A stretch of DNA of 29,776 nucleotides from Candidatus Poribacteria bacterium (GTDB taxonomy: Bacteria > Poribacteria > DTPJ01 > WJIO01), in assembly GCA_014730235.1 (NCBI GenBank), contig WJIO01000186.1, positions 1 through 29,776 of the forward strand, read 5' to 3'. Shown piece by piece: positions 1 to 12,973 of the stretch. Each line of letters opens with the position of its first letter. Positions within the stretch are counted from its first letter, which is position 1. The notes beneath the pieces were generated by a model. That model was not told the origin of the DNA. It did no database searches and saw nothing but the letters and a program-made list of their open reading frames with translations. The translations under genes and the position numbers were made by a program.

Positions 1-340
1 ATACTGTATATGTTGATGGTATATAATCACTAAAATGTGAAAGAACCCATGTATTTTCTACTTGGAAAGAAAATGCCTGTAAAGTAAATGAGGACATAAG
101 AAAAGCGAACGCGATAAAAAAAATTAAAAAAAGAGGGTTCTTTCTATAATTAAATAAAAAAATGCTTCCTGATATTAACGCGGTAATATAAAAAACTTGA
201 ATAGGATAATTTATAGAAATTAATGGAAAAATTAATACTCCCAATAATAGCAAAACTAATAGAATTGGATAATTAACTAAACGTTGATTTCCTTTAAACC
301 AATACCTCATATACTCAGCAAAATTATTATTATACCACAT
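1..340 (-). CDS. Partial ORF for a polytopic membrane protein, candidate Wzy/EpsG-like polysaccharide polymerase. Only the N-terminus is in the window; the ORF runs off the left edge.
   Basis: I translated the reverse complement of 1-340 by hand: 113 codons with no stop, starting at ATG (rc of 338-340), with a second in-frame ATG at rc of 308-310. The sequence is MWYNNNFAEYMRYWFKGNQRLVNYPILLVLLLLGVLIFPLISINYPIQVFYITALISGSIFLFNYRKNPLFLIFFIAFAFLMSSFTLQAFSFQVENTWVLSHFSDYIPSTYTV. It is very hydrophobic and aromatic-rich, like Wzy/EpsG. The ORF is absent from the supplied track because it is edge-truncated. An open frame this long is unlikely by chance in AT-rich DNA. It overlaps the wzx 3' end by 11 nt. 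Confidence 0.4.
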   Translation of the reverse strand, partial: MWYNNNFAEYMRYWFKGNQRLVNYPILLVLLLLGVLIFPLISINYPIQVFYITALISGSIFLFNYRKNPLFLIFFIAFAFLMSSFTLQAFSFQVENTWVLSHFSDYIPSTYTV

Positions 341-1799
341 TAAGAAATTTCCCACTTAACTTTGCCTTAACAATTTTTCGTAGACCGAGATCAAGACGGT
401 AAAGTATATATATATAAGCAATAGTTCCGATTCCAGCATTGATAATAACAACAAATACATTACTATAAATCCACACAAAAATTCCAGCAGGTAACAGCAA
501 AATAACCGAAAGTCCTATATACTTTAAAAGTAAGATGATACTCCAGGAAAAAGAAACATTATTATGACTAAACAATGAAAACAATAATATGATATATAGA
601 ACTCCATTTAAAATACCAAAACAAGCTAAGGCTGTTCGTGGTCCTCCTATTTTTGCTCCTAAAAAAAGACCAACCAATCGTGAGGAAACAAAGGCACATT
701 CCCATATAAGAATTTTTTTCTGACTCTGGCTTACTAAAAAAGAATGGGTAATGGGGGATACGATGAATTCAAATAGCATATATCCACTTAATATGCTTGT
801 GTAAACGCCTGCTTCAATCCATCTCTCACCGAAAATTCTGAATAATGCTGGAGCCAAAATACCTAAAGCAGCAATAGGAAAAACACCAATTTGGACTAAT
901 CGCTTGAATATGTTACTCATTATATCCGTCATATTCCCGGTTTCCCTGTAACTCTCAGCAGCAGCGGGAAGAAATACCTGGGCAACGGATTGGGCCATGA
1001 CCAATGTGGGAAGACCTATAAGTCTATAACCTAGAGAATAATAACCTACCACAGTAGTTGAATAAAATACACCAAGAATCATTGGCGGTAATTGACCGCG
1101 TATCGCATTAATTAATGCTGACCATGTATTATATATAGGAAATTTTTTATGAATTTTTGCCTGTAACCAAAGACCTGATAAAGTAATTCGGGATTTTCTA
1201 ATGTCATTGATTAATAATTTGCCCAGAATAAGTAAAATCATTACAAATGCGCATACCCAACCGACAACATATCCGACTATCAGACCAATTGATTGTGATC
1301 CAATCGTCAAACCAAATGCAGATGCAACAATCACAACTGAGAATGCCAAAGCAAATTCAGCCCAGGCTATAGAACCAAATCTATTTTTATATGAAACCCA
1401 GTATTTAAGCGCATTGTAAAAACCTATGGCAAAAGCCGCCAACGGTAAAAACCATAATAATATGTTTAACTCAGGAGCTTTATAGCGCAATGCGATGCTG
1501 GTTTTAACTAAGGGTATTATGATCAGGACAAGAATCGCAAAGACAAAAGCCAGTATAACACTTAAGACAAAGTTTTTACCGGCTTTTTCATCATTTTCCC
1601 CTAATGGTATAGATAAATCGTATCTGAAACAAGAAATCAAACCCAAAATAGCAGCGATTGAGACAAATATCTGACGAACACCAAAAACTTCTGGTGAGAA
1701 TAAACGCGTAAGTATTAAAGAACCAATGAGATTTATTACCTGGGCTCCTAATCTTCCGAAAACTAATTTTGTTATATTGGAACCCAGATTTTTACTCAT
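330..1799 (-). CDS. wzx: Wzx-type polysaccharide/O-unit flippase (MOP superfamily, polysaccharide biosynthesis protein family)
   Basis: 489 aa and hydrophobic throughout, with roughly 12-14 predicted helices. The N-terminus (MSKNLGSNITKLVFGRLGAQVINLIGSLILTRLF) is typical of the Wzx/RfbX family. The start overlaps the stop of the upstream aminotransferase as TAATG. Confidence 0.8.
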   Translation of the reverse strand: MSKNLGSNITKLVFGRLGAQVINLIGSLILTRLFSPEVFGVRQIFVSIAAILGLISCFRYDLSIPLGENDEKAGKNFVLSVILAFVFAILVLIIIPLVKTSIALRYKAPELNILLWFLPLAAFAIGFYNALKYWVSYKNRFGSIAWAEFALAFSVVIVASAFGLTIGSQSIGLIVGYVVGWVCAFVMILLILGKLLINDIRKSRITLSGLWLQAKIHKKFPIYNTWSALINAIRGQLPPMILGVFYSTTVVGYYSLGYRLIGLPTLVMAQSVAQVFLPAAAESYRETGNMTDIMSNIFKRLVQIGVFPIAALGILAPALFRIFGERWIEAGVYTSILSGYMLFEFIVSPITHSFLVSQSQKKILIWECAFVSSRLVGLFLGAKIGGPRTALACFGILNGVLYIILLFSLFSHNNVSFSWSIILLLKYIGLSVILLLPAGIFVWIYSNVFVVIINAGIGTIAYIYILYRLDLGLRKIVKAKLSGKFLNVV

Positions 1800-2905
1800 T
1801 ATTTAACAAGATAATCTTTTATTGCATTTACTATCTGTTCTTGTTGACTTTTGGTTACTTCAGAATATATTGGCAATGCCAGAACCTCATCTGCTGTCTT
1901 TTCCGAAACAGGAAGCTGACCCTTCTGATAACCTAACTCTTGATAACAATCCTGCAAATGCAAAGGGATGGGATAATATATCTGAGTGCTTATCTCATTT
2001 TTATTAAGATATTCTTTTAGGTTGTCTCTGTCTTTAACACCGACGACATACTGGTGATAAATATGGTAATTATATTCATGACAGAAAGGAGTAACCACAT
2101 CTGCTAAATCTGTCAACAGGGAATTATATAGATCGGCATTTTTTCTCCTGGATTCATTCCACTGGTCAATATATTTTAGCTTTGCCAGAAGAACGGCAGC
2201 CTGGATAGCGTCAAGACGACTGTTAAGACCTACTACAGAATGATTATATTTAATTTTGCTACCATGAACCCTCAGCATCCTTACTTTTTTTTCCAGTTCT
2301 TTATTATTAGTCAATACCATACCACCATCACCATATCCACCCAGGTTTTTTGTGGGGAAAAAGCTTAAGCAACCAAGATGTCCTATGGAACCAGCCATTC
2401 TGCCTTTATATTTAGCTCCGATTGCCTGGGCAGCATCCTCGATCACGTATAAATTATTTTTTTCGGCAATTTCCATTATCGGATCCATATCAGCGCATTG
2501 ACCGTATAGATGAACCGGAATTATGGCTTTTGTTTTCTCTGTAATCTTATCTGCTATTAGCTGAGGATTGATATTGTATGTCTTTGGATCTATATCTACA
2601 AAAACAGGTTTTGCCCCTAAACGTGAAATAGAACCGGCTGTGGCAAAAAATGTAAATGGAGTTGTTATAACTTCATCCCCATGACCAATATCCAGAGCCA
2701 TCAGGGATAATAATAAAGCATCTGTTCCTGATGCAACCCCAATCCCATGTTTTATTTGGCAGTAATCAGCTATCCGCTCTTCCAATTCTCCCACTTTTGG
2801 CCCCAGAACGAAATATTGGCTTTCAACTACTTCGGAAATAGCCTGATCAATTTCTTCTTTTATACTTTTGTATTGTTTTACCAGGTCAATAAAGGGTACT
2901 GACAT
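1799..2905 (-). CDS. DegT/DnrJ/EryC1/StrS-family PLP-dependent sugar aminotransferase
   Basis: 368 aa. It begins with the family-typical ...PFIDLVKQYKSIKEEIDQAISEVVESQYFVLGPKVGELEERIA... Glycine-rich PLP-binding segments (GVASGTDALLL, DAAQAIGAKYKGRMAGSIGHLGCLSFFPTKNLGGYGDGG) match nucleotide-sugar 3-/4-aminotransferases. Confidence 0.85.
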   Translation of the reverse strand: MSVPFIDLVKQYKSIKEEIDQAISEVVESQYFVLGPKVGELEERIADYCQIKHGIGVASGTDALLLSLMALDIGHGDEVITTPFTFFATAGSISRLGAKPVFVDIDPKTYNINPQLIADKITEKTKAIIPVHLYGQCADMDPIMEIAEKNNLYVIEDAAQAIGAKYKGRMAGSIGHLGCLSFFPTKNLGGYGDGGMVLTNNKELEKKVRMLRVHGSKIKYNHSVVGLNSRLDAIQAAVLLAKLKYIDQWNESRRKNADLYNSLLTDLADVVTPFCHEYNYHIYHQYVVGVKDRDNLKEYLNKNEISTQIYYPIPLHLQDCYQELGYQKGQLPVSEKTADEVLALPIYSEVTKSQQEQIVNAIKDYLVK

Positions 2906-2936: not shown

Positions 2937-3536
2937 CTAATCTATACGTTTAACGTGAGAATCTTTCTTTTCATATTTTTTCTTACAATTATGACATTCA
3001 GCAAATCCATCATCATCAACAGGATTTCCATGACTAAAAATTAGCTTTTCACCACATTCACACATCCAACCGGCTATACGGGTTGCGTTACCATAAACAA
3101 GGGCGTAATCGGGAACATCTTTAGTCACCACAGCTCCTGCACCAACGAAGGCGTATCTTCCAACATTATGGCCACATATTACGGTAGCATTAGCTCCGAT
3201 TGTTGCACCTTCCCTGATGAGTGTTGGGCTGTATTCATCTATGTCCCTGCGTATTTCTGCCCGGGGATTAATTACATTGGTAAAAACCATAGAAGGACCG
3301 CAAAACACGTTATCCTCTATAGTTACCATGTCATAAACTGACACGTTGTTCTGAATTCTTACATTATTGCCTATTTTCGCTTTTCCACTGATAAATACAT
3401 TCTGTCCCAAGACGCAATTTTCACCAATTTGTGCATTACTCATGACATGGCAAAAATGCCATATTTTTGTGCCTTTGCCAATATTTGCGCCTTCATCAAC
3501 TATGGCAGAATCATGAATGAAATATTCGCCGCTCAA
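2937..3536 (-). CDS. Left-handed beta-helix (hexapeptide-repeat) sugar N-acetyltransferase (QdtC/WxcM/PglD-like) with a C-terminal CxC...CxxC zinc-ribbon-like tail
   Basis: 199 aa. Hexapeptide repeats are visible: [52 protein letters not shown]. The C-terminus reads [28 protein letters not shown]. The gene sits next to the DegT aminotransferase, as in N-acetyl-amino-sugar pathways. Confidence 0.8.
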
Positions 3537-3570: not shown

Positions 3571-4173
3571 CTATAAATAACCAAGAGATTTTAACCTTTG
3601 TTTAATTTTTTCTTCCTCTTCAGAATCATAAGCAAGAGATTCTGAAGCTGGGGGAATAAGTCCTGCCAATTCCAAATATCTTATGATTTTCTCGGCACTT
3701 TCTTCTACATTTTCTTTATCTGTGTCCACTATAATTGTCGGATTTTCTGGTTCTTCATACGGGTCTGATATACCAGTGAAGTTTTTTATTTCACCAGACA
3801 AGGCTTTTTTATACATACCCTTTACATCCCTCTCAATACATACTTCCACTGGACATCTTACAAAGACCTCAATGAAATTATCAATCCCGACTTTAATTTG
3901 TTCACGAACTTCACGATATGGGGAGACAAAAGCAGCAATAACAGCCACGCCATTTCTGGAAAGCAGTTTAGCTATGAATCCCATACGACTTATGTGGGTA
4001 TCCCTGTCTTTCTTACTGAATCCTAAGTCCTTGCTTAAGTGAGTCCGAACTTCATCACCATCCAGAGATTCCACGTTAAGGCCTCTGTTCCTTAGTTCTT
4101 TTTCAATTATTTCCGCAATAGTGGTCTTTCCTGAGCACGGAAGACCAGTAAACCATAGAGTAAATCCTGACAT
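3571..4173 (-). CDS. cysC: Adenylyl-sulfate (APS) kinase
   Basis: 200 aa. The P-loop is FTGLPCSGKTTIAEIIE. The motif LDGDEVRTHLSKDLGFSKKDRDTHISRMGFIAKLLSRNGV is characteristic of CysC. Confidence 0.9.
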   Translation of the reverse strand: MSGFTLWFTGLPCSGKTTIAEIIEKELRNRGLNVESLDGDEVRTHLSKDLGFSKKDRDTHISRMGFIAKLLSRNGVAVIAAFVSPYREVREQIKVGIDNFIEVFVRCPVEVCIERDVKGMYKKALSGEIKNFTGISDPYEEPENPTIIVDTDKENVEESAEKIIRYLELAGLIPPASESLAYDSEEEEKIKQRLKSLGYL

Positions 4174-4196
4174 AGTTATATCTCCAGTTGTTGTTA

Positions 4197-5594
4197 TTAA
4201 AAATCAATAACCTTTCCCTGCATATCATCAGGTATAGATATATTCATCAATTTCAAAATTGTAGGAGCGCAGTCCATAACATGGATATCAGTAATTTTAC
4301 CACTTACTTTGCTATTTGGTACGCTCATTATAAACATGCCGTATTGAGCGTGGTTGGCATCATCCGGACCTGTATCGTTTTCAAAGGTATGTATGGTTTT
4401 TAACCCCACACTACCAACCGAACGCCATGAAAGATCGCCAAAATATATTATAAGATCTGGCGGGATACCTTTACAGACTTTATATATATCCTGAGGTTTA
4501 AATACTTTCGTTCCTATGGGATTACCTTTGTCATCTCCCAGGTCTTTGAGCTTTTCTGTCAATTCATCCCTGATTTTTTCATAGTCCATCTGAGGAACAA
4601 TTCCCCTGGGTTCCCTATCTTTTACATTGAGAAAAACTCGGGCGTAATAGCCACCTTCACCCCATGCACGAGTGTTTTCCCAATCAATATTTTCACTAGC
4701 TAGACGGGTTACCTCATCAGGATATTCCTTTAATTTCAGATAACCTTCCTGGATCATCCATTCGTTTATACATATTCCGCCATCCATAGGCTTTACTCCA
4801 TGATCCGATACTACTATAACCGCGGTATCTTCTCCGGCAGTTTCAATGAGGTCACCAGCAATTTCATCGAGATATTCATAGTATTCTCTGGCTATGTCCT
4901 TATATTTTGTGGGTATATAATCCCTGTGGTTTTCGTCAATAAAGCGCCAGAGTCCATGATGAAGCCTATCAGGTCCCATCTCTACCATCATAAAGAAATC
5001 CCAATCACTTGTTGTCATAAGGTGTTTCGCGACTTTATGGCGTTTTTCTGTCATCTCGAATATTTCATTAACGATCTGAGCTTTGTCGTCAGTTCTGAAA
5101 TTTTCTACATCCAGCATATATCCATCAGCTATCCGTTCCACTTCCTGTTTTAATTCCGGAGGATATGTATATTCGCTTTCGGTGCTGGGAGTCAGGAAAG
5201 ATGTTACCATACATCCATTAAGGGGTTTTGGTGGGTAAGTTTGGGGAACTCCGATAATAATGGAGTTTTTGTCGTGTTTTGAAAGAATATCCCAAACTGT
5301 GTTTTCTTTTACCATAGTTGAGTTGGCGATGGACATTCCATCATATGAGTGATCAGGTCTATTTCTAAAACCATAGAAACCTAGAGTTCCGGGATCTTTG
5401 CTGGTCATCATAGACATCCATGCCGGGCATGTAATAGCGGGTATAGTGCTTTCGATTTCTCCATAAATTCCATTATCCATAAGCTTCTTCATATTTGGCA
5501 TATCATCGAGATATTTGTCAAAAACCAATTGAGGCGCGCCACAGTCCCAACCTATTACCAGAACTTTCTTTATTTTCTTTCTTCTTTTAAACAT
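4197..5594 (-). CDS. Alkaline-phosphatase-superfamily protein, type I phosphodiesterase / nucleotide pyrophosphatase-like, soluble. It sits between sat and cysC.
   Basis: 465 aa. The N-terminal core VLVIGWDCGAPQLV...TIPAITCPAWMSMMTS resembles the metal-binding and nucleophile region of the NPP/AlkP fold, and VVSDHG is the conserved DHG metal ligand. The start overlaps the sat stop as TAATG. No TM segment is present. Confidence 0.6.
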   Translation of the reverse strand: MFKRRKKIKKVLVIGWDCGAPQLVFDKYLDDMPNMKKLMDNGIYGEIESTIPAITCPAWMSMMTSKDPGTLGFYGFRNRPDHSYDGMSIANSTMVKENTVWDILSKHDKNSIIIGVPQTYPPKPLNGCMVTSFLTPSTESEYTYPPELKQEVERIADGYMLDVENFRTDDKAQIVNEIFEMTEKRHKVAKHLMTTSDWDFFMMVEMGPDRLHHGLWRFIDENHRDYIPTKYKDIAREYYEYLDEIAGDLIETAGEDTAVIVVSDHGVKPMDGGICINEWMIQEGYLKLKEYPDEVTRLASENIDWENTRAWGEGGYYARVFLNVKDREPRGIVPQMDYEKIRDELTEKLKDLGDDKGNPIGTKVFKPQDIYKVCKGIPPDLIIYFGDLSWRSVGSVGLKTIHTFENDTGPDDANHAQYGMFIMSVPNSKVSGKITDIHVMDCAPTILKLMNISIPDDMQGKVIDF

Positions 5595-6757
5595 TAAGCT
5601 ACCCCTCGGCTTGCCTTCATTAATATCTGAGCAACTTCAGGACGTGTAAATTCTTCCGGTAAGTCTTTACCTTCTGACAGCATTCCCCGTACTTTTGTTC
5701 CACTCAGAAAAACATGTGATTCTTTTCCATGAGGGCAGGTTTTCCCTGTAGCCATGCCGTCACATTCCTTACAGTAGAAGGCGTGTTCAAATTTTAGCGG
5801 TATAATACCTATTTCTTCAGGCTTAAACTCATCAAAAATTTTCTGTGCATCGTAAGTGCCATAATAATTAGCCACACCAGCATGATCTCTACCTACGATA
5901 AAGTGTGTGCATCCGTAATTTTTTCTTGCTATGGCATGGAGGATTGCCTCTTTTGGACCTGCGTATCTCATAGCTGCGGGAAATACCGACATTACTGTGC
6001 GGTTTTTGGGATAATATTTTTCCAGTATTATCCTGTAACATTCTATGCGTACATCGGCAGGAATATCATCTTTTTTTGTTGCCCCTACCAGGGGATGAAG
6101 CAAAAGACCATCCACAGTTTCCAGAGCGCATTTCTGGATATATTCATGAGCCCGGTGTATTGGATTGCGCGTCTGAAAAGCCACAACACTGCTCCAGCCT
6201 TTATAATGGAAAAGAAGCCTTGTTTCCTTTGGGTCAAGCAGCACGCCCTCTATCTCACCATGATCCGGACGGTTAATCATTACGACATTACCGGCCAAAA
6301 GCACATCACCCTTCTCATATAAAGCTGCAACTCCGGGATGGGCAATATCTGTCGTTCCATAAACGACTTGCGCTTCTTTTTCCCTGTCATAATCGTATTT
6401 CTCATCCAGATATAAGACACCCATCACCTCTCCATTTTGGTCACAAAGTGCTACATCGTTATCCAGGGCATATTTACTTGCATCGTCTTTACTTACAGCC
6501 AGAGTTATTGGGATAGTCCAAGGACAGCCGCTTGCCAGTCGGTTATTTTCAAGTACGCTATTATAATCTTTTTGACCCATAAAGCCTTCAAGAGGACTGA
6601 AAGCTCCTATGGAGATCATCTCCAGATCTGAGATTTCCCTCTTATTTAATGTAACTTTTTCCATACCCGGAATCCGTTCAATTAGATAATCCCGAACAGG
6701 CCCTTCACCAATACTGTTGATTAGCTTGCCGCCGTGCGGATCGATCAAATGCTTCAT
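5594..6757 (-). CDS. sat: Sulfate adenylyltransferase (ATP sulfurylase)
   Basis: 387 aa. It contains the diagnostic QTRNPIHRAHE and GRDHAG motifs and an N-terminal PUA-like domain. Confidence 0.9.
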   Translation of the reverse strand: MKHLIDPHGGKLINSIGEGPVRDYLIERIPGMEKVTLNKREISDLEMISIGAFSPLEGFMGQKDYNSVLENNRLASGCPWTIPITLAVSKDDASKYALDNDVALCDQNGEVMGVLYLDEKYDYDREKEAQVVYGTTDIAHPGVAALYEKGDVLLAGNVVMINRPDHGEIEGVLLDPKETRLLFHYKGWSSVVAFQTRNPIHRAHEYIQKCALETVDGLLLHPLVGATKKDDIPADVRIECYRIILEKYYPKNRTVMSVFPAAMRYAGPKEAILHAIARKNYGCTHFIVGRDHAGVANYYGTYDAQKIFDEFKPEEIGIIPLKFEHAFYCKECDGMATGKTCPHGKESHVFLSGTKVRGMLSEGKDLPEEFTRPEVAQILMKASRGVA

Positions 6758-6760
6758 CTA

Positions 6761-8656
6761 TTACCCCTTATGTTTTATACGAGTAAAATTTAAGACAGTG
6801 CCAATAACATTACTTCCGGAATTTTCTAATATCCCCTGGGTATCGTTTACATATTCTCTGTTAGTGGTATCTGCCTTTATCACAAGGATAGTAGCATCAA
6901 CTTTTGAGCCAATAGCTGCTGGGATAGCAGACGATGCCAGAGATTGGGAATCAAAAATTACTATATCGAAATTATTTGTTATATCTTCTAATATGCGATC
7001 AAAATGGGAAGATGAAAAATATGAAGAATTAGTATTGTATTCACTTCTACCTGATGTCATAACGCTTAATCCATCTGTTTCTGTTAAAGTAATTGCATCA
7101 TCCCAATCTGAATTTCCCTCCAGAATATCAAATAATCCCTGTTTCTGGTCTAATTCCATAATCCTGTCTACATCCGGTGTTTTATTATCAGAATCAATCA
7201 GTAATACCTTAAGATCTGACAAAGCAAAGCACAATGCCAGATTTGCAGAAACTGAGGTTTTACCTTCACCGTCCAGAGAACTTGTGACAAGTAAAGTTAA
7301 ACCTTTTGACTTATTCTTTAATATTTCAATTTTTGCCGTTGTTTCTAAATATAGCATATCATAGGAGTTTTTGTAAAGATCATTGAGCTTTCCGGGGGGT
7401 ATTTTATTGATAATTGTTTCTTTTATTTCATGGTGGTTTCTTAGCCTGGGGATAACTCCCAGAACAGGCAGATTCAAAGATTCAGCTAGTGATTTTGGGT
7501 CATGAATTGTTTTATCTGTAAATATTTTAAAGAAGGCAAGAGTTAATCCTAAAAATCCACCGGCCAGAATACTTGCGGCAAATATTATTTTTCTTTTAGG
7601 TTTGCTGGGATATAAAGGTTCTGCCGCTTCTTCTATGATCTCAGTGGTGTTTCGCTGCATTATATGTTGGGCCTTTAACTCTTCGTGCTTTGTTACAAGA
7701 AGACTGTAAACCTGTTGATTAAAAACCACCTCAGCCGCCAATTCAGTCAGACCAAATTGCTTATTATATTTCTCAAAGGCCTTTTCCTCTTCTTCTTTAA
7801 GCCTTTCTCTGGTTTCCTTCAATTGGGCTTTTAAATTTACGACTTTTGGATCACTAGGAGGGTAACTTTTTTTTAACACATCCAGTTCTATTTCCAATTC
7901 CATTACAGCCGATCTGAGCTTTGCAATGGTCTGGGGTACTTCCGGAATCATAAACTTAGAACTATCGCCGCCTATTTGATTTCCCGCACCTATTAATAAA
8001 GGACTAAAAGCAGTTGGGATACCCTCACCTGTTTCATTTTGGTACAGCCGGTTTCTTGAATCTACCAGTTCACCCTTTACTTCCTTAAGTTTATTTTCCA
8101 TTTGTGTGATTAATTCATTCCAGGCTTTTTGTTGAGATTTATTGGCAAAATCTATATACTCAATGGCAACCTGGTCTGTAATTTCTTTTGCTTCCTTGGG
8201 TGTATCCCCTGCCGCTGATATATCTATTAAATTTGTCCTTCCTCTTTGTCTAACTTCAAGGTTTTCCTGAAATTTATTTATAATCATCCGCATGTCCATA
8301 TCGGTGTTTTTTGGCTTCTTATCCAGCCCGAGCTCCTTTATTACCTTTTCTGATATAGTTCTGCTTTTGATTATTTCCACTTCTGTGGTAACATCCCCGG
8401 CCTGTCCGATAGGTAAAAACGCCCCAAGGGCAGCAGCCAACCCACCTCCGGATTGTGTTGGAATCTTTATGACCGCTTTGGATGTATATTGTCTTGGTGT
8501 AACCAGGAGAAATATCAGGGTTGCACTTACAACAATCCCAAAAGGTATAATGATTAACCACTTTCTCCTTAACAATTCGTTCCAATATTCACTTAATCGG
8601 ATTTCCTTTTCTCCAGTATATTCAGGCATTTGACCTGATGGAGATGGTGATTTCAT
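6761..8656 (-). CDS. wzc: Wzc/ExoP-like polysaccharide co-polymerase: an N-terminal Wzz chain-length domain fused to a C-terminal BY-kinase/CapB-like P-loop ATPase. It lacks the C-terminal tyrosine cluster.
   Basis: 631 aa. It has an N-terminal TM segment, a long coiled-coil periplasmic region, then a second TM segment. Walker A is LLVTSSLDGEGKTSVSANLA and Walker A' is VLLIDSD. The C-terminus ...VLNFTRIKHKG has no Tyr-rich tail. Confidence 0.8.
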   Translation of the reverse strand: MKSPSPSGQMPEYTGEKEIRLSEYWNELLRRKWLIIIPFGIVVSATLIFLLVTPRQYTSKAVIKIPTQSGGGLAAALGAFLPIGQAGDVTTEVEIIKSRTISEKVIKELGLDKKPKNTDMDMRMIINKFQENLEVRQRGRTNLIDISAAGDTPKEAKEITDQVAIEYIDFANKSQQKAWNELITQMENKLKEVKGELVDSRNRLYQNETGEGIPTAFSPLLIGAGNQIGGDSSKFMIPEVPQTIAKLRSAVMELEIELDVLKKSYPPSDPKVVNLKAQLKETRERLKEEEEKAFEKYNKQFGLTELAAEVVFNQQVYSLLVTKHEELKAQHIMQRNTTEIIEEAAEPLYPSKPKRKIIFAASILAGGFLGLTLAFFKIFTDKTIHDPKSLAESLNLPVLGVIPRLRNHHEIKETIINKIPPGKLNDLYKNSYDMLYLETTAKIEILKNKSKGLTLLVTSSLDGEGKTSVSANLALCFALSDLKVLLIDSDNKTPDVDRIMELDQKQGLFDILEGNSDWDDAITLTETDGLSVMTSGRSEYNTNSSYFSSSHFDRILEDITNNFDIVIFDSQSLASSAIPAAIGSKVDATILVIKADTTNREYVNDTQGILENSGSNVIGTVLNFTRIKHKG

Positions 8657-8743
8657 TATAATATACTCTCCGGAAGATTAGCTTGCAGGATTAACCGGGG
8701 TATGTCAATACTTCCATAACAAAAGGACGGAAATTTAAAATAT

Positions 8744-8974
8744 TTAACCTTGCTCTTCCTGGAGCGAGGTTTTTGAGTTAGAAAGTTTTTCAACATACCA
8801 CTCTTCAAAATCTTTCTTGCGTATTATGTAGCTACCTTCTATTTTAACCGCAGGTAGTTTCCCCTCTCTACACCAACGTTGTATGGTTGCAAGATTTTTT
8901 TTGAGAGCTTGGGCCAATTGTTTTGTTGTAAGAAATTCATCCTCAAATACAGGTGGGTTCACCATAACCTCCAT
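8744..8974 (-). CDS. Small HTH DNA-binding protein (excisionase/HTH_17-like) upstream of the polysaccharide operon
   Basis: 76 aa. The segment LTTKQLAQALKKNLATIQRWCREGKLPAVKIEGSYIIRKKDFEEWY matches the excisionase-family HTH. It lies 87 bp upstream of wzc on the same strand. Confidence 0.55.
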   Translation of the reverse strand: MEVMVNPPVFEDEFLTTKQLAQALKKNLATIQRWCREGKLPAVKIEGSYIIRKKDFEEWYVEKLSNSKTSLQEEQG

Positions 8975-9127
8975 CTCAGTATCTGTTGAATCTAATCAGG
9001 TGTTATGTGTCAAAAAACGTCGCAAATAATAAGTTATTTCAACCCACAAAAGTATACATAAGTTTATGCCTCATGTCAATGATATATTTAACTTACATAA
9101 ATTTTTTATTATCCGGGATATTTAAAA

Positions 9128-9919
9128 TTAAAGCTCCTCTAAATTTCTGATTATATAATTCGGTCTTATACCTGTCTTCTCTATATCTTTTTCAGTGCTC
9201 ATTCCTGTAAGAACCAAAGCCGAATCCATACCAAAATCTATAGCACCTTTAATATCAGTTGTAAGCATATCCCCAACCATCAAGATCTTAGATTTTACCA
9301 TATTCATTCTTTCCATTGCCATAACATACATTTCCGGATAAGGTTTACCCATAAGCAGTGCCTCGGTACTGCTGGCTGATTCGATGAAGGCTATTATGGA
9401 ACCAGTACCGGCTTCGATTTCACCGTTTTCTACTGGTCTGGCAAAATCTGGATTTGTGCCTATAAAGGTTGCACCATAAGTAGCGATAGCATTAGCGGCT
9501 CTGCTTCCCATTTCCCAGTTAAATTTCTTATAAAATCCCACAACGACATAATCGGCTTCCCTGTGATATTTAATATCCAGTACCTTCATACCAATTTCCC
9601 GGATAAGCTGTTTGACTGATTCTTCAGATATACAAAACACCTTATTTTTTTCAGGTTTAATTTTTAACTGTTTCTTCAGATAATTTGCAGCAACATTTCC
9701 CGCTGTGATTATGTCGGTTTCATTGACAGTTTCAACCCCAATACGAAGCAGAATAGATTGATACTCTCCGGGTAATTTTGCCGAGTTATTGGTTATAAAC
9801 ATGGTTTTTCGGCCTTCGGACTTCAGTTTATTTATTATTTTAATGGCAGATTCTATAGGTTTATCCCCCCTGTATACCACCCCATCCATATCAAATATAT
9901 AGCCTTCATATGATTTCAT
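9128..9919 (-). CDS. HAD-superfamily subfamily IIA hydrolase (NagD/sugar-phosphatase-like). The start is re-assigned to an internal ATG.
   Basis: Motif I is IFDMDGVVYRG, and the layout is HAD-IIA. The track start at 9964 is a GTG inside a 15-bp tandem duplication. The ATG at 9917-9919 is preceded by GGAGGAAAT, a strong SD, and gives the family-typical MKSYEGYIFDMDG N-terminus. Confidence 0.75.
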   Translation of the reverse strand: MKSYEGYIFDMDGVVYRGDKPIESAIKIINKLKSEGRKTMFITNNSAKLPGEYQSILLRIGVETVNETDIITAGNVAANYLKKQLKIKPEKNKVFCISEESVKQLIREIGMKVLDIKYHREADYVVVGFYKKFNWEMGSRAANAIATYGATFIGTNPDFARPVENGEIEAGTGSIIAFIESASSTEALLMGKPYPEMYVMAMERMNMVKSKILMVGDMLTTDIKGAIDFGMDSALVLTGMSTEKDIEKTGIRPNYIIRNLEEL

Positions 9920-9945
9920 ACCGTAATTTCCTCCAGCCTTTTTCT

Positions 9946-9975
9946 TCACCTGTATTGATTTCACCTGTATTGATT
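9946..9975. repeat. Exact 15-bp tandem duplication (TCACCTGTATTGATT x2) in the HAD 5' leader
   Basis: Direct reading shows identical units at 9946-9960 and 9961-9975. Confidence 0.9.
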
Positions 9976-10088
9976 TATATCCCTAATCTATACTGATCAG
10001 GATATTATAATAAGATACTTAAAGTCAAGTTATTTTCCCTGAAGGTGATCGTTGAAAGGGGAATATATGCTTACTTTTTTCCATTATC

Positions 10089-10248
10089 GTAATTGTTAAA
10101 AAATAGATGGCTCTTCCGGGTTCAGTGTGTTAAAGATAAGAAACTTCTTTATGCTGTCATTCCTGCTTTCGCAGGAATAACAAATTCTGTAGTTAAGCAT
10201 AGAATAAAGCGATTGTTATAAACATAAATTACATTTTTTAACGATTAC
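10089..10248. repeat. ~160-bp intergenic element with terminal inverted repeats (GTAATTGTTAAAAAAT / ATTTTTTAACGATTAC) centred on an ATTCCT-N8-AGGAAT palindrome. It is MITE-like or a regulatory module. Copy 1 of 2.
   Basis: The arms at 10089-10104 and 10233-10248 are 15/16 reverse-complementary. The palindrome at 10159-10178 (ATTCCTGCTTTCGCAGGAAT) is equidistant from both arms, about 64 bp each. A related element is at 26221-26432. Confidence 0.6.
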
Positions 10249-10396
10249 ATTATCAGACTTAACTCTGAAGAAACAAATTTTTTCGTTATATCTCGTTAAA
10301 ATTTTCATTCATTTGGTCAAAAAAAGTAAGCTATATTTAATGCTTATTCGTTATGATTACAAATGAAAACTACATGAATAAAAGGCTTGAAAAGCA

Positions 10397-10425
10397 TTGA
10401 CAAAAACCATGCCAGATGCTATACT
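10397..10425 (+). promoter_or_regulatory. Consensus sigma70 promoter for the LolA-like gene
   Basis: The -35 is TTGACA (10397-10402), the spacer is 17 bp, and the -10 is TATACT (10420-10425). An AGGAGA SD follows at 10442-10447, with the ATG at 10453. Confidence 0.6.
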
Positions 10426-10452
10426 CGTTTTTAGAGATATAAGGAGATAATT

Positions 10453-11154
10453 ATGAAAACAATTCATTTAGAGATAATTGGAATTATTTGTATCTGTTTG
10501 GTATTTTTTATAATAAATACAGCTACTGCTGCGAGTGTTAAAGAGATAGTCCAAGGGTTCAGGGAAAAATATAAAGAGACCAAAAATTTCAACGCAGAAT
10601 TTACTGAAACTACTGTCATTGCAGGACAAAGGCGCGTTTCAAAGGGATTTGTCAACTTTCAGAAACCTAACTTACTTCGGAAAGATACAAGAGATCCCAA
10701 TAACATGGACAAAACCATACAATTGATCGTCTCTGATGGTGGGACAATATGGGCTTATACACCTATGATTAAACAAGTTACAAAACAAGAGCTAACACAG
10801 AACTCAGATATGGCGGAACTTATGCCTGGGTTTGGTCACTCTCTGGAAAATATTGAAGATAACTATAATATAAAATTTGTTGAAGATAAAGAAGCAGAAA
10901 AACAGGAGATTCACGCTATTGAATTGAAGCCAAAGCTGGACGGCGGCGCGAAAGCATCTTTTGATTACATGCAGGTCTGGATAAGGGATAAAGACCTGAT
11001 TCCCGTTCAGTTTATGTATGAAGATAAAAAGAATCAAATGGTATTTGTCCTTTCGTTTAAAGACATCAAGATAAATCAGAAGTTGGATGAATCTACTTTT
11101 AAATTTGATTTACCTGATGGTGTTCAGGTGATCTCTGTGCCTAAACGGCAATAG
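10453..11154 (+). CDS. LolA-like outer-membrane lipoprotein carrier / lipoprotein-sorting family protein
   Basis: 233 aa with a signal peptide (MKTIHLEIIGIICICLVFFIINTATAAS). The LolA-like core is QGFREKYKETKNFNAEFTETTVIAGQRRVSKGFVNFQKPNLLRKDT. Confidence 0.7.
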   Translation: MKTIHLEIIGIICICLVFFIINTATAASVKEIVQGFREKYKETKNFNAEFTETTVIAGQRRVSKGFVNFQKPNLLRKDTRDPNNMDKTIQLIVSDGGTIWAYTPMIKQVTKQELTQNSDMAELMPGFGHSLENIEDNYNIKFVEDKEAEKQEIHAIELKPKLDGGAKASFDYMQVWIRDKDLIPVQFMYEDKKNQMVFVLSFKDIKINQKLDESTFKFDLPDGVQVISVPKRQ

Positions 11155-11167
11155 GTGGTATTATTCT

Positions 11168-11557
11168 ATGGCGTCAATAGGTGAACAACTTAAAGCGGCA
11201 CGTATGGCTAAAGAAAAATCACTGGACGAAGTATCAAACGATACTAAGATAAGCAAAAAGTACCTTGAAGCTCTGGAAGCTGATGATTATAATGTTTTTC
11301 CCGCTCCCATATATGCAAAAGGCTCTTTAAAGGCTTATGCAAATTATGTTGCTCTGGATTACGAAGCTTTGGATCGTGAGTATAAAAAACTTACGGGTTT
11401 AAGTAAACTTGCCAGCGGCGATAGTAATGACAGCGTTGAAAATAAGGCTGAAACGAAATCTTCCAACAATTCTAGTAAAATTATTATACCTATCGCTACT
11501 ATTGTTCTTATTATCGTTGTTGCGGCAATATATTATTATTTCTTTTATGGAAAGTAG
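11168..11557 (+). CDS. RodZ-like protein: a cytoskeleton-associated HTH (HTH_25) N-terminal domain plus a C-terminal TM anchor
   Basis: 129 aa. It begins GEQLKAARMAKEKSLDEVSNDTKISKKYLEALE...YAKGSLKAYANYV. The C-terminal hydrophobic helix is IIIPIATIVLIIVVAAIYYYFF. Its position upstream of pgsA-cinA matches the Bacillus ymfM(rodZ)-pgsA-cinA synteny. Confidence 0.65.
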   Translation: MASIGEQLKAARMAKEKSLDEVSNDTKISKKYLEALEADDYNVFPAPIYAKGSLKAYANYVALDYEALDREYKKLTGLSKLASGDSNDSVENKAETKSSNNSSKIIIPIATIVLIIVVAAIYYYFFYGK

Positions 11558-11644
11558 TTTAAAATATATTTTGTCCATTGAATCCCATTAATATCCCTAT
11601 TAAACCCGAAAGAAATAGAATTCATTTATTGGAGTATCTTTGCC

Positions 11645-12973
11645 TTGAATAAAAAAGTAGGTATTATAAGTCTTGGATGTAATAAAAATCTGGTTGATAC
11701 AGAGGTTATGCTGGGTTTATTAAGGGAAGAAGGATATGAAATTACCCCGGATGAAAATGTAGCTGATATTCTCATAATAAACACCTGTGCATTTATTGAT
11801 ACAGCCAGGGATGAATCAATGGAAGTTATTCATAATCTTATTGATTCTAATGGTAAAGGTGAACGTAAAATCATAGTAACCGGCTGTCTTGCCCAACGAT
11901 ATGGTGAAGAACTTGCAGAAGAATTAAAAGGTGATATACATGCCCTGGTAGGTGTTGGTAATTTCCAGAATATAGTGGATGTATGCAAATATATTCTGAA
12001 GAGCGATAAAACCATCATTCAAATATCTCCTACTCCCGCCTATATATATGACCACAGTGTTCCAAGACTGAGAACAACTCCGCCACATCTGGCTTATGTG
12101 AAAATATCGGAGGGCTGTAATAACCGATGCTCTTATTGTATTATTCCGCAATTACGCGGACCGTATCGCAGCAGGAGTATTGATTCTATACTGGCAGAAG
12201 TTGCTGTATTGTCAGAATTCGGAGTTAAAGAGATAAATCTCATCGGACAGGATACTACATGTTATGGTCGAGATTTGAATGATGGAAGTAATTTAGTAGT
12301 TTTGCTGAAGGAATTGGTTAATGTTCCTAAAACTCACTGGATCAGATTTATGTATGGCCATCCAAATCATATAGACGACGAACTCCTGGAATTGGTTGCA
12401 AAAGAAGAAAAAATCTGCTCTTATATAGATATACCTATTCAGCATATCCACGATGATATACTAAAAAGAATGGCAAGAAGAACAACACAAAAGCAGATAT
12501 TTCAATTGATAGATAAAATTCGGAATACTATACCGTATGTAACTTTAAGAACTTCCCTAATTGTAGGCTTTCCCGGTGAAAATGATGTTCACTTCAAAGC
12601 TTTAATAGATTTTGTTGAGCAGGCCCAATTCGATCATCTGGGTGTATTTGCCTATTCAAGGGAAAAGAATACAAAAGCTTATGATCTTGATGAGCAAGTT
12701 CCAGAATCAATAAAGCAGGAACGCCTTAGTCAGATAGCCAGTTTGCACCAAAGTATAGCAGATAAAAAGCGCAGAGCATTAATAGGCAGGAGAACAAAGG
12801 TGATTGTGGATGATATACTACCTCAGGCAAAAGGTAGAACTCAAGGTCAGGCTCCTGAAGTTGATGATATAACCTATATTACCAAAAGCGATAGTTGCGA
12901 ACCTGGTGATATAGTGGATATAGAAATAATAGACACTTATGAAATCTATGATTTAATTGGAAGATTAATATAA
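11645..12973 (+). CDS. rimO: Ribosomal protein S12 methylthiotransferase RimO (radical-SAM MiaB family)
   Basis: 442 aa. It has the MTTase N-domain (VGIISLGCNKNLVDTE), a radical-SAM CxxxCxxC (EGCNNRCSYC), and a TRAM C-terminus. A TTG start is preceded by GGAG. Confidence 0.85.
   Translation: MNKKVGIISLGCNKNLVDTEVMLGLLREEGYEITPDENVADILIINTCAFIDTARDESMEVIHNLIDSNGKGERKIIVTGCLAQRYGEELAEELKGDIHALVGVGNFQNIVDVCKYILKSDKTIIQISPTPAYIYDHSVPRLRTTPPHLAYVKISEGCNNRCSYCIIPQLRGPYRSRSIDSILAEVAVLSEFGVKEINLIGQDTTCYGRDLNDGSNLVVLLKELVNVPKTHWIRFMYGHPNHIDDELLELVAKEEKICSYIDIPIQHIHDDILKRMARRTTQKQIFQLIDKIRNTIPYVTLRTSLIVGFPGENDVHFKALIDFVEQAQFDHLGVFAYSREKNTKAYDLDEQVPESIKQERLSQIASLHQSIADKKRRALIGRRTKVIVDDILPQAKGRTQGQAPEVDDITYITKSDSCEPGDIVDIEIIDTYEIYDLIGRLI

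What the first reader, a model, noticed from the sequence alone, without database searches (positions are those of the whole stretch)
3571..6757. PAPS-synthesis pair (sat, cysC) embedded in an EPS/O-unit operon, with a coupled AlkP-superfamily protein and no recognisable sulfotransferase
The wzc, sat, alkP-like, cysC, acetyltransferase, aminotransferase and wzx genes are all coupled, with overlaps or gaps of 34 nt or less. The locus therefore supplies activated sulfate (APS/PAPS) for modifying a secreted N-acetyl-amino-sugar polymer. No Sulfotransfer_1/3 or NodH/Stf-type enzyme is visible in the window. The only uncharacterised enzyme is a soluble NPP/AlkP-fold protein, TAATG-coupled to sat. 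AlkP-fold enzymes work through covalent phospho- or sulfo-Ser/Thr/FGly intermediates. So this protein is a candidate non-canonical APS/PAPS-utilising sulfo-transferase or a PAP(S)-processing enzyme. Alternatively the sulfotransferase lies beyond the left edge.
Basis: partly seen in the sequence, partly recalled or inferred. Interest (0 to 1): 0.6.

Follow-up and report, generated by a model that had tools for sequence, protein, structure and literature searches.

The report
Third enzyme of sulfate-activation cassette
An uncharacterised alkaline-phosphatase-type enzyme sits between the two genes that make activated sulfate in this polysaccharide locus, and the same trio recurs across more than a dozen bacterial phyla and as fused proteins, so it is a conserved, unstudied part of sulfate activation whose chemistry is not yet known.

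Summary
On the minus strand, wzc, sat, an AlkP/NPP-type gene (4197-5594), cysC, a hexapeptide acetyltransferase, a DegT aminotransferase and wzx are tightly coupled, and no window ORF matches a sulfotransferase family.

The window is the whole contig, so nothing lies to the left of position 1.

The AlkP-like protein is not a local oddity.
- Orthologues are 51-74% identical and occur in at least 13 phyla.
- In 41 of 86 loci they sit next to cysC and/or sat, in the order sat>alkP>cysC.
- They evolve about as slowly as Sat and CysC.
- They are fused to Sat (more than 120 protein clusters in Anaerolineae) and to CysC.
- A sister subfamily is fused to Sat, a pyruvate-kinase barrel, CysC and a PHP phosphatase. 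The largest case is a 1680-aa five-domain protein.

The active site is NPP-like, with a Thr nucleophile and two-metal ligands. It is not a formylglycine sulfatase.

Function is unresolved. My leading reading (about 0.4) is removal of the pyrophosphate released by Sat.

The parts
6761..8656 (-). Wzc-like polysaccharide co-polymerase / tyrosine autokinase. It is the first visible gene of the EPS operon segment.
   Evidence: Pfam Wzz, GNVR and AAA_31; NCBIfam TIGR01007 at 122 bits against a cutoff of 108. The same Wzc>Sat>AlkP>CysC order occurs in L087, L090 and L091.
5594..6757 (-). Sat, the homo-oligomeric-type ATP sulfurylase (sulfate + ATP -> APS + PPi).
   Evidence: PF14306 + PF01747; NF003166 at 561 bits against a cutoff of 387. 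Its stop overlaps the alkP start as TAATG.
4197..5594 (-). AlkP1: a cytoplasmic NPP-clade alkaline-phosphatase-superfamily enzyme (465 aa). Predicted nucleophile is Thr55. Metal ligands are D17, D209/H213, D264/H265 and H415. Family signature residues are R77-N78-R79, R210 and N414.
3571..4173 (-). CysC, the APS kinase (APS + ATP -> PAPS + ADP).
   Evidence: PF01583 at 3e-61; NF002059 at 248.7 bits against a cutoff of 244. It lies 23 nt after alkP and has its own ribosome-binding site.
2937..3536 (-). Hexapeptide-repeat sugar N-acetyltransferase (WbpD/NeuD-like).
   Evidence: Pfam Hexapep; best NCBIfam hit is TIGR03570 NeuD/PglB/VioB, below its cutoff. The same gene follows the cassette in L088 and L089.
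1799..2905 (-). DegT/DnrJ/EryC1-type nucleotide-sugar aminotransferase.
   Evidence: PF01041 at 8.8e-131. It is syntenic in L088 and L089.
330..1799 (-). Wzx-type (MOP) flippase.
   Evidence: Pfam Polysacc_synt_3 and Polysacc_synt.
2..340 (-). 5' part of a very hydrophobic ORF that runs off the contig end. It is possibly a Wzy-like polymerase, and it shows the locus continues beyond the window.
   Evidence: Read directly from the sequence. No Pfam match for the 113-aa fragment. The assignment is an inference.

Best explanation
ORF 4197-5594 encodes the third component of a conserved Sat-type sulfate-activation cassette (sat-alkP-cysC). In this Poribacteria contig the cassette sits inside a Wzx/Wzy-type exopolysaccharide locus, where it supplies PAPS for a sulfated polymer built from N-acetylated amino sugars.

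The protein is a soluble NPP-clade enzyme of the alkaline phosphatase superfamily. It has a two-metal site and a Thr55 nucleophile, surrounded by invariant Arg and Asn residues (R77-N78-R79, R210, N414).

The most likely mechanism is as follows:
- Thr55 attacks a phosphoanhydride by-product, forms a phospho-Thr intermediate, and water releases phosphate.
- The substrate is most probably the pyrophosphate released by Sat.
- Removing it pulls the very unfavourable APS-forming step forward, while CysC traps APS as PAPS.
- In this role it would do what inorganic pyrophosphatase does when fused to ATP sulfurylase in stramenopiles and haptophytes, and what the CysN GTPase does in cysDNC cassettes.

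Shown here: gene coupling, cassette conservation, the fusions, fold, and conservation of active-site residues.

Inferred: the substrate (PPi), the hydrolytic outcome, and sulfation of the EPS.
For: Cassette:
- Of 86 loci from at least 13 phyla, 35 have cysC (32 of them downstream) and 30 have sat (28 upstream) within 2.5 kb on the same strand. 24 have both.
- The genes around the cassette differ between lineages, so it behaves as a self-contained unit.

Fusions to PPi-releasing enzymes:
- Sat-AlkP1 is one uninterrupted ORF of 861-863 aa in 7 Chloroflexota genomes.
- All 120 best protein clusters retrieved with that ORF are full-length fusions, 64-96% identical.
- The sister subfamily is fused to Sat independently (P0395; P0298 and P0391 as AlkP-PK-Sat).
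- It is also fused to a sugar-phosphate-type NTP_transferase domain (P0299, P0397), a family whose characterised members release PPi.
- One relative is fused to a PF01507 domain, the PAPS reductase / CysD family (P0403).

The five-domain protein:
- P0394 has the order AlkP-PK-Sat-CysC-PHP.
- PK would recycle ADP, and PHP is pAp-phosphatase-like (best NCBIfam hit for the related stand-alone PHP proteins is NF041577).
- PPi is then the one by-product with no other handler.

Conservation:
- Mean identity between the same genome pairs is 57% for AlkP1, 61% for Sat and 63% for CysC.
- 75 residues are invariant across all contexts.
- This fits an invariant small substrate.

Precedent: ATPS-pyrophosphatase fusions in stramenopiles and haptophytes, explained there as pulling the ATPS equilibrium (PMC2275785).

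Fold and site:
- Thr55 aligns with the nucleophile position of a sulfatase motif.
Against: - No assay exists, and no dedicated pyrophosphatase is known in this clade.
- AlkP1 also occurs without sat or cysC nearby, inside glycan operons. Examples are the Verrucomicrobia order GT2-AlkP1-GHMP kinase-AlkP2-acetyltransferase-GT4 and the Isosphaeraceae order epimerase-AlkP1-GT. A close sister type is fused to a GT2 glycosyltransferase (P0292).
- No canonical sulfotransferase was found near the gene in about 90 loci, including six EPS or glycan loci with Pfam-annotated genes. The PAPS consumer is therefore unaccounted for.
- About 130 residues beyond the NPP core, including an insert at about 270-400, are highly conserved and rich in invariant aromatic and Arg residues. 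That would be more than PPi needs and would suit a nucleotide ligand (my reading).
- The CysC-AlkP1 fusion (P0253) is not specifically predicted by a PPi role.
- A local pyrophosphatase does not by itself overcome a high bulk PPi concentration (thermodynamic argument from general knowledge).
Confidence: 0.4

Rival explanations
1. Non-canonical sulfotransferase. Thr55 attacks the sulfuryl group of PAPS (or APS) and forms a covalent sulfo-Thr enzyme. The sulfate is then passed to a conserved acceptor, for example a nucleotide sugar or a lipid-linked first sugar. This would parallel the ping-pong phospho-alcohol transfer of EptA/MCR-1 and LtaS in the same superfamily.
For: - No canonical sulfotransferase is seen in the window.
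- None is seen in the syntenic EPS loci L087-L091.
- None is seen in the 25-kb glycan locus around the five-domain protein, which carries two AlkP genes.
- None recurs near the gene in 84 loci.
- By contrast, Chloroflexus has a sulfotransferase directly next to its Sat/CysC gene (PMC3150298).
- AlkP1 is embedded in glycan operons even where sat and cysC are elsewhere.
- A sister type is fused to GT2.
- pAp-phosphatase-like PHP genes or domains sit in the same operon or polypeptide, which implies PAPS is consumed locally.
- Thr55 sits where sulfatases carry formylglycine.
Against: - 57% mean identity across phyla and identical active-site residues in every context argue against lineage-specific glycan acceptors.
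- Stand-alone cassettes have no glycan genes nearby.
- Fusion to Sat rather than to the PAPS-producing CysC is the dominant architecture.
- Relatives are fused to NTP_transferase and PF01507 domains.
- No natural sulfotransferase with a two-metal Thr site is known (general knowledge).
- The search for nearby sulfotransferases was incomplete: singleton Pfam hits were not all listed, and the motif regex was crude.
Confidence: 0.2
2. pAp (or PAPS) 3'-phosphatase. This would be a non-homologous replacement for CysQ. It removes the toxic 3',5'-ADP left after PAPS is used.
For: - Adjacency to cysC is the commonest link (35 of 86 loci).
- A CysC-AlkP1 fusion exists.
- High conservation and scattered genomic contexts fit a housekeeping nucleotide phosphatase.
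- Cationic residues next to the metal ligands (R77, R79, R210) fit a monoester dianion (inference).
- The structural neighbours PhoK and PafA are monoesterases.
- cysQ is often clustered with PAPS-synthesis genes (general knowledge).
Against: - In Desulfobacterota loci and in the five-domain fusion, a PHP protein or domain whose best match is 3',5'-nucleoside bisphosphate phosphatase is already present beside the AlkP.
- pAp is not a product of Sat, the commonest fusion partner.
- Relatives are fused to NTP_transferase and PK, which has no link to pAp.
Confidence: 0.12
3. Nucleotide-recycling phosphotransferase rather than a hydrolase. For example, the phospho-Thr formed from PPi is passed to AMP, giving ADP + Pi, and the ADP feeds the pyruvate-kinase domain. 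Adenine nucleotides and PPi would then be recycled within one sulfation machine.
For: - The AlkP-PK barrel pair recurs on its own (P0352, P0396, P0393).
- The same pair sits N-terminal to Sat (P0298, P0391), and to Sat-CysC-PHP in P0394.
- With PHP giving AMP and PK needing ADP, a step from AMP to ADP is the only gap in a closed cycle (inference).
- The superfamily includes phosphomutases and transferases that work through phospho-Ser/Thr (one search lists iPGM and phosphopentomutase among the structural neighbours).
Against: - The PK fusions involve the sister subfamily (36-40% identical, lacking the R-N-R and N414 signature), not AlkP1 itself.
- The reading is purely inferential.
- Adenylate kinase is ubiquitous.
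Confidence: 0.1
4. Ordinary nucleotide pyrophosphatase/phosphodiesterase with no specific role in sulfur metabolism, lying in the operon by chance.
For: - The Pfam family and the closest folds are NPPs.
- About half of the loci show no sat or cysC within 2.5 kb.
Against: - Translational coupling in the window.
- Order-conserved adjacency in at least 13 phyla.
- At least three independent kinds of fusion to Sat, and one to CysC.
Confidence: 0.03

Closest known systems
ATP sulfurylase-inorganic pyrophosphatase fusions of stramenopiles and haptophytes (Patron et al. 2008, PMC2275785)
   Same: ATP sulfurylase is physically joined to a phosphohydrolase. The stated rationale there is pulling the unfavourable APS-forming equilibrium. 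APS kinase belongs to the same module.
   Different: The partner there is a classical soluble pyrophosphatase. Here it is an unrelated NPP-clade alkaline-phosphatase-superfamily enzyme of unknown activity. This system is bacterial, usually an operon rather than a fusion, and often accompanied by a second AlkP paralogue.
cysD-cysN-cysC (with or without cysQ) PAPS cassettes inside sulfated-polysaccharide loci, e.g. Vibrio sp. KMM 8419 (PMC11641403)
   Same: A dedicated second copy of the PAPS-synthesis genes is embedded in a capsule/EPS locus. It has three components: an activating enzyme, a driving-force or helper protein, and APS kinase.
   Different: Those loci use the heterodimeric CysDN GTPase-coupled sulfurylase and carry recognisable sulfotransferase genes. 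This one uses Sat plus the AlkP-like protein and shows no recognisable sulfotransferase.
Nucleotide pyrophosphatase/phosphodiesterases (Xanthomonas NPP, ENPP1-7) and the related monoesterases PhoK and PafA
   Different: Only 11-16% identity. The protein is cytoplasmic rather than secreted. It has about 130 conserved residues beyond the core and its own invariant R-N-R / D-R / N-H signature. No substrate is known.
Alkaline-phosphatase-superfamily group transferases that decorate glycans (EptA/MCR-1, LtaS/LtaP)
   Different: Those enzymes are membrane-anchored and periplasmic, use lipid donors and belong to the sulfatase-like branch. AlkP1 is soluble, cytoplasmic and in the NPP branch.
Chloroflexus aurantiacus Caur_2113 (Sat/CysC) with the adjacent sulfotransferase Caur_2114 (PMC3150298)
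   Same: PAPS-synthesis genes kept for sulfation rather than assimilation.
   Different: A canonical sulfotransferase is the direct neighbour there. Here the direct neighbour is the AlkP-like enzyme.

Membership tests
Alkaline phosphatase superfamily, NPP / Phosphodiest branch (PF01663) | Significant match to the family profile, above the curated cutoff | tested here: met
   PF01663 at 159.5 bits against a cutoff of 23, covering profile positions 1-342.
Alkaline phosphatase superfamily, NPP / Phosphodiest branch (PF01663) | NPP-type core fold | tested here: met
Alkaline phosphatase superfamily, NPP / Phosphodiest branch (PF01663) | Two-metal ligand set (Asp; Asp/His; Asp/His; His), a Thr/Ser nucleophile and an Asn contact | tested here: met
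   D17, T55, N78, D209, H213, D264, H265 and H415 are invariant in 77 sequences (the window protein and 76 orthologues). T55 aligns to the nucleophile position of an arylsulfatase motif. The assignment of roles is by motif, not by coordinates.
Alkaline phosphatase superfamily, NPP / Phosphodiest branch (PF01663) | Nucleotide pyrophosphatase/phosphodiesterase activity | not testable with these tools
   Needs an enzyme assay.
Formylglycine (S1) sulfatases (PF00884) | C/S-x-P-x-R formylglycine motif and a profile match above the cutoff | tested here: not met
Canonical PAPS-dependent sulfotransferases (Sulfotransfer_1-5, Stf0, NodH type) | P-loop-like 5'-PSB and 3'-PB motifs on the sulfotransferase fold | tested here: not met
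   No such Pfam family matches the protein, and the fold is NPP. If it does transfer sulfate, it does so as a different kind of enzyme.
Inorganic pyrophosphatases (family I, family II DHH, membrane H+-PPase) | Homology to one of the known pyrophosphatase folds | tested here: not met
   Only PF01663, PF00884 and SGSH_C are matched. The claim is therefore 'may work like a pyrophosphatase', not 'is a member'.
pAp phosphatases (CysQ/IMPase family, NrnA/DHH, PHP-type) | Homology to one of these folds | tested here: not met
   No such Pfam or NCBIfam match. PHP-type candidates occur as separate neighbours or domains.
sat-alkP-cysC cassette (defined here) | An AlkP1 orthologue (R77-N78-R79, R210, N414 signature) directly between, and co-oriented with, Sat-type ATP sulfurylase and APS kinase | tested here: met
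   Window gene order and junctions. The signature is present. The same order occurs in 24 other loci that have both partners.
Wzx/Wzy-dependent EPS / O-unit locus | Wzc/Wzz, a Wzx flippase, a Wzy polymerase, an initiating transferase and glycosyltransferases | tested here: inconclusive
   Wzc-like and Wzx are present. Wzy is only suspected, from a truncated hydrophobic ORF. No glycosyltransferase or initiating transferase lies within the contig. Syntenic relatives add Wza, GT1, Wzi and a 2-epimerase.

The most novel reading that the evidence does not exclude
AlkP1 (and/or its paralogues) is a new class of sulfotransferase. It would be an alkaline-phosphatase-fold, two-metal enzyme that takes the sulfuryl group of PAPS or APS onto Thr55 and passes it to a conserved glycan precursor. 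That would explain why PAPS-synthesis cassettes in many phyla, including a five-domain AlkP-PK-Sat-CysC-PHP 'sulfation machine', have no recognisable sulfotransferase nearby.
Probability: 0.2. Interest if true: 0.9.

Novelty: new variant of a known kind. Interest (0 to 1): 0.7.

Why it matters
Sulfate activation (ATP sulfurylase, then APS kinase) is textbook biochemistry, usually described as a two-enzyme pathway helped by a generic pyrophosphatase.

A third, dedicated enzyme has gone unnoticed. It is highly conserved, co-operonic in at least 13 bacterial phyla, and repeatedly fused to Sat, CysC, a pyruvate-kinase barrel and a PHP phosphatase. Current annotation hides it as 'phosphodiesterase', or inside proteins labelled 'sulfate adenylyltransferase'.

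Whatever it does, it changes how PAPS supply should be read in these groups:
- Planctomycetota (including anammox bacteria)
- Chloroflexota
- Verrucomicrobiota
- Desulfobacterota
- Poribacteria and others

What each outcome would give:
- If it removes PPi or recycles nucleotides, nature has built the same enzyme set that chemists assemble for in-vitro PAPS regeneration. Compact fusion proteins would then be available for enzymatic sulfation.
- If it is a sulfotransferase, it is a new enzyme class. It would make sulfated bacterial polysaccharides predictable from genomes that now appear to lack sulfotransferases.

Tried and rejected
- Source contig. Exact look-up of two window proteins found nothing. 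The homologue search then showed that the window is the whole contig, so the region to the left of position 1 cannot be inspected. I used the syntenic contigs of the closest relatives instead.
- Sequence search against solved structures. The single protein gave nothing, and the family profile gave only marginal hits.
- Literature. Six searches on COG3379, the AlkP superfamily with sulfotransferase/PAPS/Sat, nucleotide pyrophosphatase with sat/cysC, and non-canonical sulfotransferases (for the fusions) found no description of this cassette. The library is partial, so absence is not proof.
- Link to dissimilatory sulfate reduction. I checked whether Desulfobacterota neighbours were AprAB/Qmo. 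They are type II secretion / pilus genes. Rejected.
- Sulfotransferases near the gene. A 5'-PSB-loop regex over 1081 ORFs and a Pfam scan of 148 neighbour ORFs found none recurring. The regex is crude and the Pfam summary lists only 25 families, so single occurrences cannot be excluded.
- Unknown neighbours as cryptic sulfotransferases. None is one.
- AF2 model of the Sat-AlkP1 fusion, to look for a fixed interface. The model was poor (pTM 0.57, Sat domain pLDDT below 50) and is uninformative.
- The AlphaFold-database fold library was not available.
- A phosphomutase role, or a GmhB/KdsC/CobC-like phosphatase role suggested by GHMP kinase, KdsA or CobS neighbours. I judged these neighbours to be lineage-specific synteny and did not pursue them.

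Full report
**1. Observation**

The window's minus strand carries a tightly packed gene run. Pfam and NCBIfam identify these genes:
- 6761-8656: Wzc-like co-polymerase/tyrosine kinase.
- 5594-6757: Sat (NF003166, 561 bits against a cutoff of 387).
- 4197-5594: a PF01663 'Phosphodiest' protein (2.2e-46). Its Sulfatase PF00884 match is only 21.7 bits, below the cutoff of 25, and it has no NCBIfam model.
- 3571-4173: CysC.
- 2937-3536: hexapeptide acetyltransferase.
- 1799-2905: DegT aminotransferase.
- 330-1799: Wzx-type flippase.

- The sat stop and the alkP start overlap as TAATG, behind a GAGGGG ribosome-binding site.
- cysC follows alkP after 23 nt, with a GGAGA site.
- The other gaps are 3, 34 and 31 nt, plus one 1-nt overlap.

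A very hydrophobic ORF starts at 340 or 310 and runs off the left end, so the locus continues.

None of the 34 window ORFs scanned matches a sulfotransferase family. For seven of them this holds even at E<=1.

The best database hit is 100% identical and sits on a contig of exactly 29,776 bp from a Candidatus Poribacteria MAG. The window is therefore the whole contig, and 'left of position 1' cannot be inspected.

**2. The AlkP-like protein itself**

It has no signal peptide. The first beta-strand, with the metal-ligand Asp17, begins at residue 10.

An AlphaFold model built on 26 homologues is confident (pLDDT 92.8, pTM 0.92). Its structural neighbours are:

| Neighbour | Score |
|---|---|
| Foldseek best hits | 11-15% identity, TM about 0.55-0.60 |

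No solved structure is close by sequence.

Across 77 sequences (the window protein and 76 orthologues from all genomic contexts), 75 residues are invariant. They include:
- the classical ligand and nucleophile set D17, T55, D209, H213, D264, H265 and H415;
- Asn78, in the motif position where NPPs carry their phosphoryl-contacting Asn (my reading of the motif, from general knowledge);
- a family-specific set next to those residues: R77 and R79, R210 and N414.

A profile alignment places the I-T-x-P-A-W segment on the I-C-A-P-S-R formylglycine motif of an arylsulfatase. Thr55 therefore occupies the nucleophile position, but the sulfatase motif is absent.

The protein belongs to the Phosphodiest/NPP branch, not the sulfatase branch.

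**3. The gene is part of a conserved cassette**

Homologues are very numerous:
- 8000 of 8000 scored candidates were significant.
- 3383 cluster representatives at 50% identity scored E<=1e-30 in a search of 1.84 billion representatives.

They are also unusually conserved, at 51-74% identity to the window protein. They occur in Poribacteria, Latescibacterota, Schekmanbacteria, Chloroflexota, Planctomycetota (anammox genera and Isosphaeraceae), Verrucomicrobiota, Desulfobacterota, Acidobacteriota, Nitrospinota, Marinimicrobia, Actinomycetota (Gaiellales), Armatimonadota and Binatota.

In 86 non-duplicate loci:
- cysC lies within 2.5 kb on the same strand in 35, and is downstream in 32 of them;
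- sat lies within 2.5 kb on the same strand in 30, and is upstream in 28 of them;
- 24 loci have both, and 41 have at least one;
- typical gaps are tens of bases.

The genes around the trio differ from lineage to lineage, so the trio behaves as a unit.

For the same pairs of genomes, mean identity is 61% for Sat, 63% for CysC and 57% for the AlkP protein.

A 25-33% identical paralogue ('AlkP2') often follows cysC. It keeps the metal ligands and has a Ser or Thr nucleophile, but it lacks the R-N-R and N414 signature.

In several Desulfobacterota a PHP-domain protein follows. Its best NCBIfam match is 3',5'-nucleoside bisphosphate phosphatase, at 211-221 bits, below the cutoff of 400.

**4. Fusions**

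Fusions of the AlkP1 type:
- In seven Chloroflexota genomes, Sat and AlkP1 are one uninterrupted ORF of 861-863 aa with a linker of about 20 residues.
- A search with that ORF returned only full-length Sat-AlkP fusions among the best 120 clusters. They are 64-96% identical and 790-897 aa long. Those that carry a source name are labelled 'sulfate adenylyltransferase' or 'ATP sulfurylase'.
- P0253 is a CysC-AlkP1 fusion with the full AlkP1 signature.

Fusions of a sister subfamily, 36-40% identical to AlkP1:
- to Sat (P0395);
- to a pyruvate-kinase barrel (P0352, P0396, P0393);
- to PK plus Sat (P0298, P0391; about 1150 aa);
- to an NTP_transferase domain (P0299, P0397);
- to an HD domain (P0398).

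Other fusions of AlkP-type domains:
- a more distant relative (28% identical to AlkP1) is fused to a PF01507 PAPS-reductase/CysD-family domain (P0403);
- a closer 'R-H-R' variant is fused to a GT2 glycosyltransferase (P0292).

The most striking case is P0394, 1680 aa, found on three contigs from two data sources. Its domain order is AlkP (5-464), PK (469-787), Sat (832-1209), CysC (1224-1391), PHP (1397-1653). It lies in a glycan locus with NeuB, a CMP-sugar synthetase, glycosyltransferases and Wzx. Another AlkP gene follows it directly. No Pfam sulfotransferase occurs in the 25 kb shown.

**5. The EPS context and the missing sulfotransferase**

The closest relatives of the window protein (69-74% identical) sit in the same kind of locus:
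- Wza-Wzc-Sat-AlkP-CysC-GHMP kinase-MurB-like (L087).
- Epimerase ... Wzx-GT1-Sat-AlkP-CysC-GFO oxidoreductase-hexapeptide transferase-DegT-2-epimerase (L088).
- The same order continuing to GHMP kinase, Wzi, MurB-like and an FGE-family gene (L089).
- Wzc-Sat-AlkP-CysC (L090, L091).

The GFO/DegT/hexapeptide trio is the usual route to di-N-acetylated amino sugars (general knowledge). None of these Pfam-annotated loci has a sulfotransferase family hit. One close relative (L085) carries the cassette outside any EPS locus.

As a contrast, Chloroflexus aurantiacus has a canonical sulfotransferase directly beside its Sat/CysC gene (PMC3150298). Sulfated-capsule loci of Vibrio carry cysDNC together with sulfotransferase genes (PMC11641403).

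**6. How it most likely works**

What is shown is that the enzyme is tied to Sat and CysC. Its chemistry is inferred.

I rank a phosphoanhydride by-product hydrolase first, with the PPi released by Sat as substrate (about 0.4). The reasons are:
- Sat is the dominant fusion partner.
- Relatives are fused to another nucleotidyltransferase-family domain, whose characterised members release PPi.
- In the five-domain protein ADP has PK and pAp has PHP, which leaves PPi as the one by-product with no handler.
- The protein is as conserved as Sat and CysC in every context, which suits an invariant small substrate.
- Eukaryotic algae independently fused ATP sulfurylase to a pyrophosphatase for this purpose (PMC2275785).

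Against this reading:
- The enzyme also sits in glycan operons without sat or cysC (Verrucomicrobia, Isosphaeraceae).
- A sister type is fused to GT2.
- About 130 residues beyond the NPP core are conserved, including invariant aromatic and Arg residues in an insert at about 270-400. That would be more than PPi needs.
- The PAPS consumer is nowhere to be seen.

The operon and the mega-fusion contain every recycling function, but no sulfotransferase other than, possibly, an AlkP.

A CysQ-like pAp phosphatase (about 0.12) is weakened by the co-occurring PHP proteins.

A PPi:AMP phosphotransferase that feeds PK (about 0.1) is an attractive way to close the nucleotide cycle. It rests only on domain order in the sister subfamily.

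Chance adjacency is essentially excluded.

**7. Comparison with what is known, and novelty**

By fold and motifs the protein is a member of the NPP branch of the alkaline phosphatase superfamily. It is not a member of the sulfatase, canonical sulfotransferase, pyrophosphatase or CysQ families, so any of those functions would be by analogy only.

I found no description of a sat-alkP-cysC cassette or of these fusions in the searchable literature. That library is incomplete.

I classify the finding as a new variant of a known kind: a PAPS-synthesis cassette with an uncharacterised, conserved third enzyme. There is a 0.2 chance that it hides a categorically new sulfotransferase class.

Interest is 0.7. 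The finding is specific, widespread and directly testable with a handful of assays.

Noticed in passing
window 17107-29242 (minus strand): A large gas-vesicle gene cluster in this Poribacteria contig. It has four GvpL/GvpF paralogues (one with a DnaJ domain), GvpA-type, GvpK and GvpO genes, an Hsp20/GvpH-like gene, an AAA_5 GvpN-like ATPase and a CDC48-type double AAA ATPase. Gas vesicles suggest a planktonic rather than sponge-bound lifestyle.
   Followed up: partly
L092 10001-15043 (protein P0394); the next gene is at 15048-16529: A 1680-aa five-domain protein with the order AlkP-pyruvate kinase barrel-Sat-CysC-PHP, found on three contigs. It lies inside a NeuB/CMP-sugar/glycosyltransferase/Wzx locus and is followed by a second, divergent AlkP gene. 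No Pfam sulfotransferase occurs within 25 kb.
   Followed up: partly
proteins P0352, P0396, P0393, P0298, P0391, P0299, P0397, P0403, P0398, P0292, P0383: AlkP-type domains related to AlkP1 occur in other fusions: with a pyruvate-kinase barrel alone, with PK + Sat, with an NTP_transferase, with a PF01507 (PAPS reductase/CysD family) domain, with an HD domain, with a GT2 glycosyltransferase and with a SAM methyltransferase.
   Followed up: partly
L004 8849-11440 (also L009, L010, L011, L012, L014, L031): The Sat-AlkP1 fusion ORF is split or partly uncalled in the gene calls shown for one record. For L004 the listed genes include only a 479-aa 'phosphodiesterase' from an internal Met, with no gene over the sat part. 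Elsewhere the 860-aa protein is named only 'sulfate adenylyltransferase'. Annotation therefore hides the AlkP domain.
   Followed up: yes
alignment A1, columns about 497-518 (P0046, P0075, P0079, P0119): Some orthologues (anammox bacteria and others) carry a C-terminal acidic tail that ends in a conserved R-L-E-A-L-G-Y-[ILV]-(E) motif. The window protein lacks it. It may be a docking peptide.
   Followed up: no
L027, L029, L030, L037, L044, L048, L055, L077 (around 5600-10300): In other Poribacteria the orthologue (52-56% identical) is not next to sat or cysC. It sits in a conserved run of GNAT/FemAB-like, PF00884 sulfatase-like, (PhyH dioxygenase), AlkP1, then an S58 peptidase on the opposite strand, often with DegT nearby. 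The role of this second context is unexplained.
   Followed up: partly
L043, L047, L058, L059, L061, L068 (around 8000-14000); L071, L081, L082: A GHMP kinase whose best match is heptose-7-phosphate kinase HddA (below its cutoff) is a recurrent neighbour. In Verrucomicrobia it sits directly after AlkP1, followed by a 571-aa AlkP2, an acetyltransferase, a GT4, HlyD and OEP. In Ktedonobacteria it sits beyond cysC and sat, with a SIS-domain gene.
   Followed up: partly
L090 7621-8335; L085 8986-9942: Small mobile or defence-type genes are inserted inside the cassette in relatives. A HEPN / nucleotidyltransferase pair lies between wzc and sat, and a TIR-like (CAP12/Pycsar-type) 318-aa gene lies between sat and alkP.
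   Followed up: no
window 15106-16461 (+): A 451-aa ORF between cinA and a LigT-like 2'-5' RNA ligase gene has no Pfam match (best E 0.03).
   Followed up: partly
L089 11740-12822: An FGE-sulfatase family (formylglycine-generating-enzyme-like) gene lies at the end of the syntenic EPS locus of a close relative, although no Cys-type sulfatase motif is present in AlkP1.
   Followed up: no
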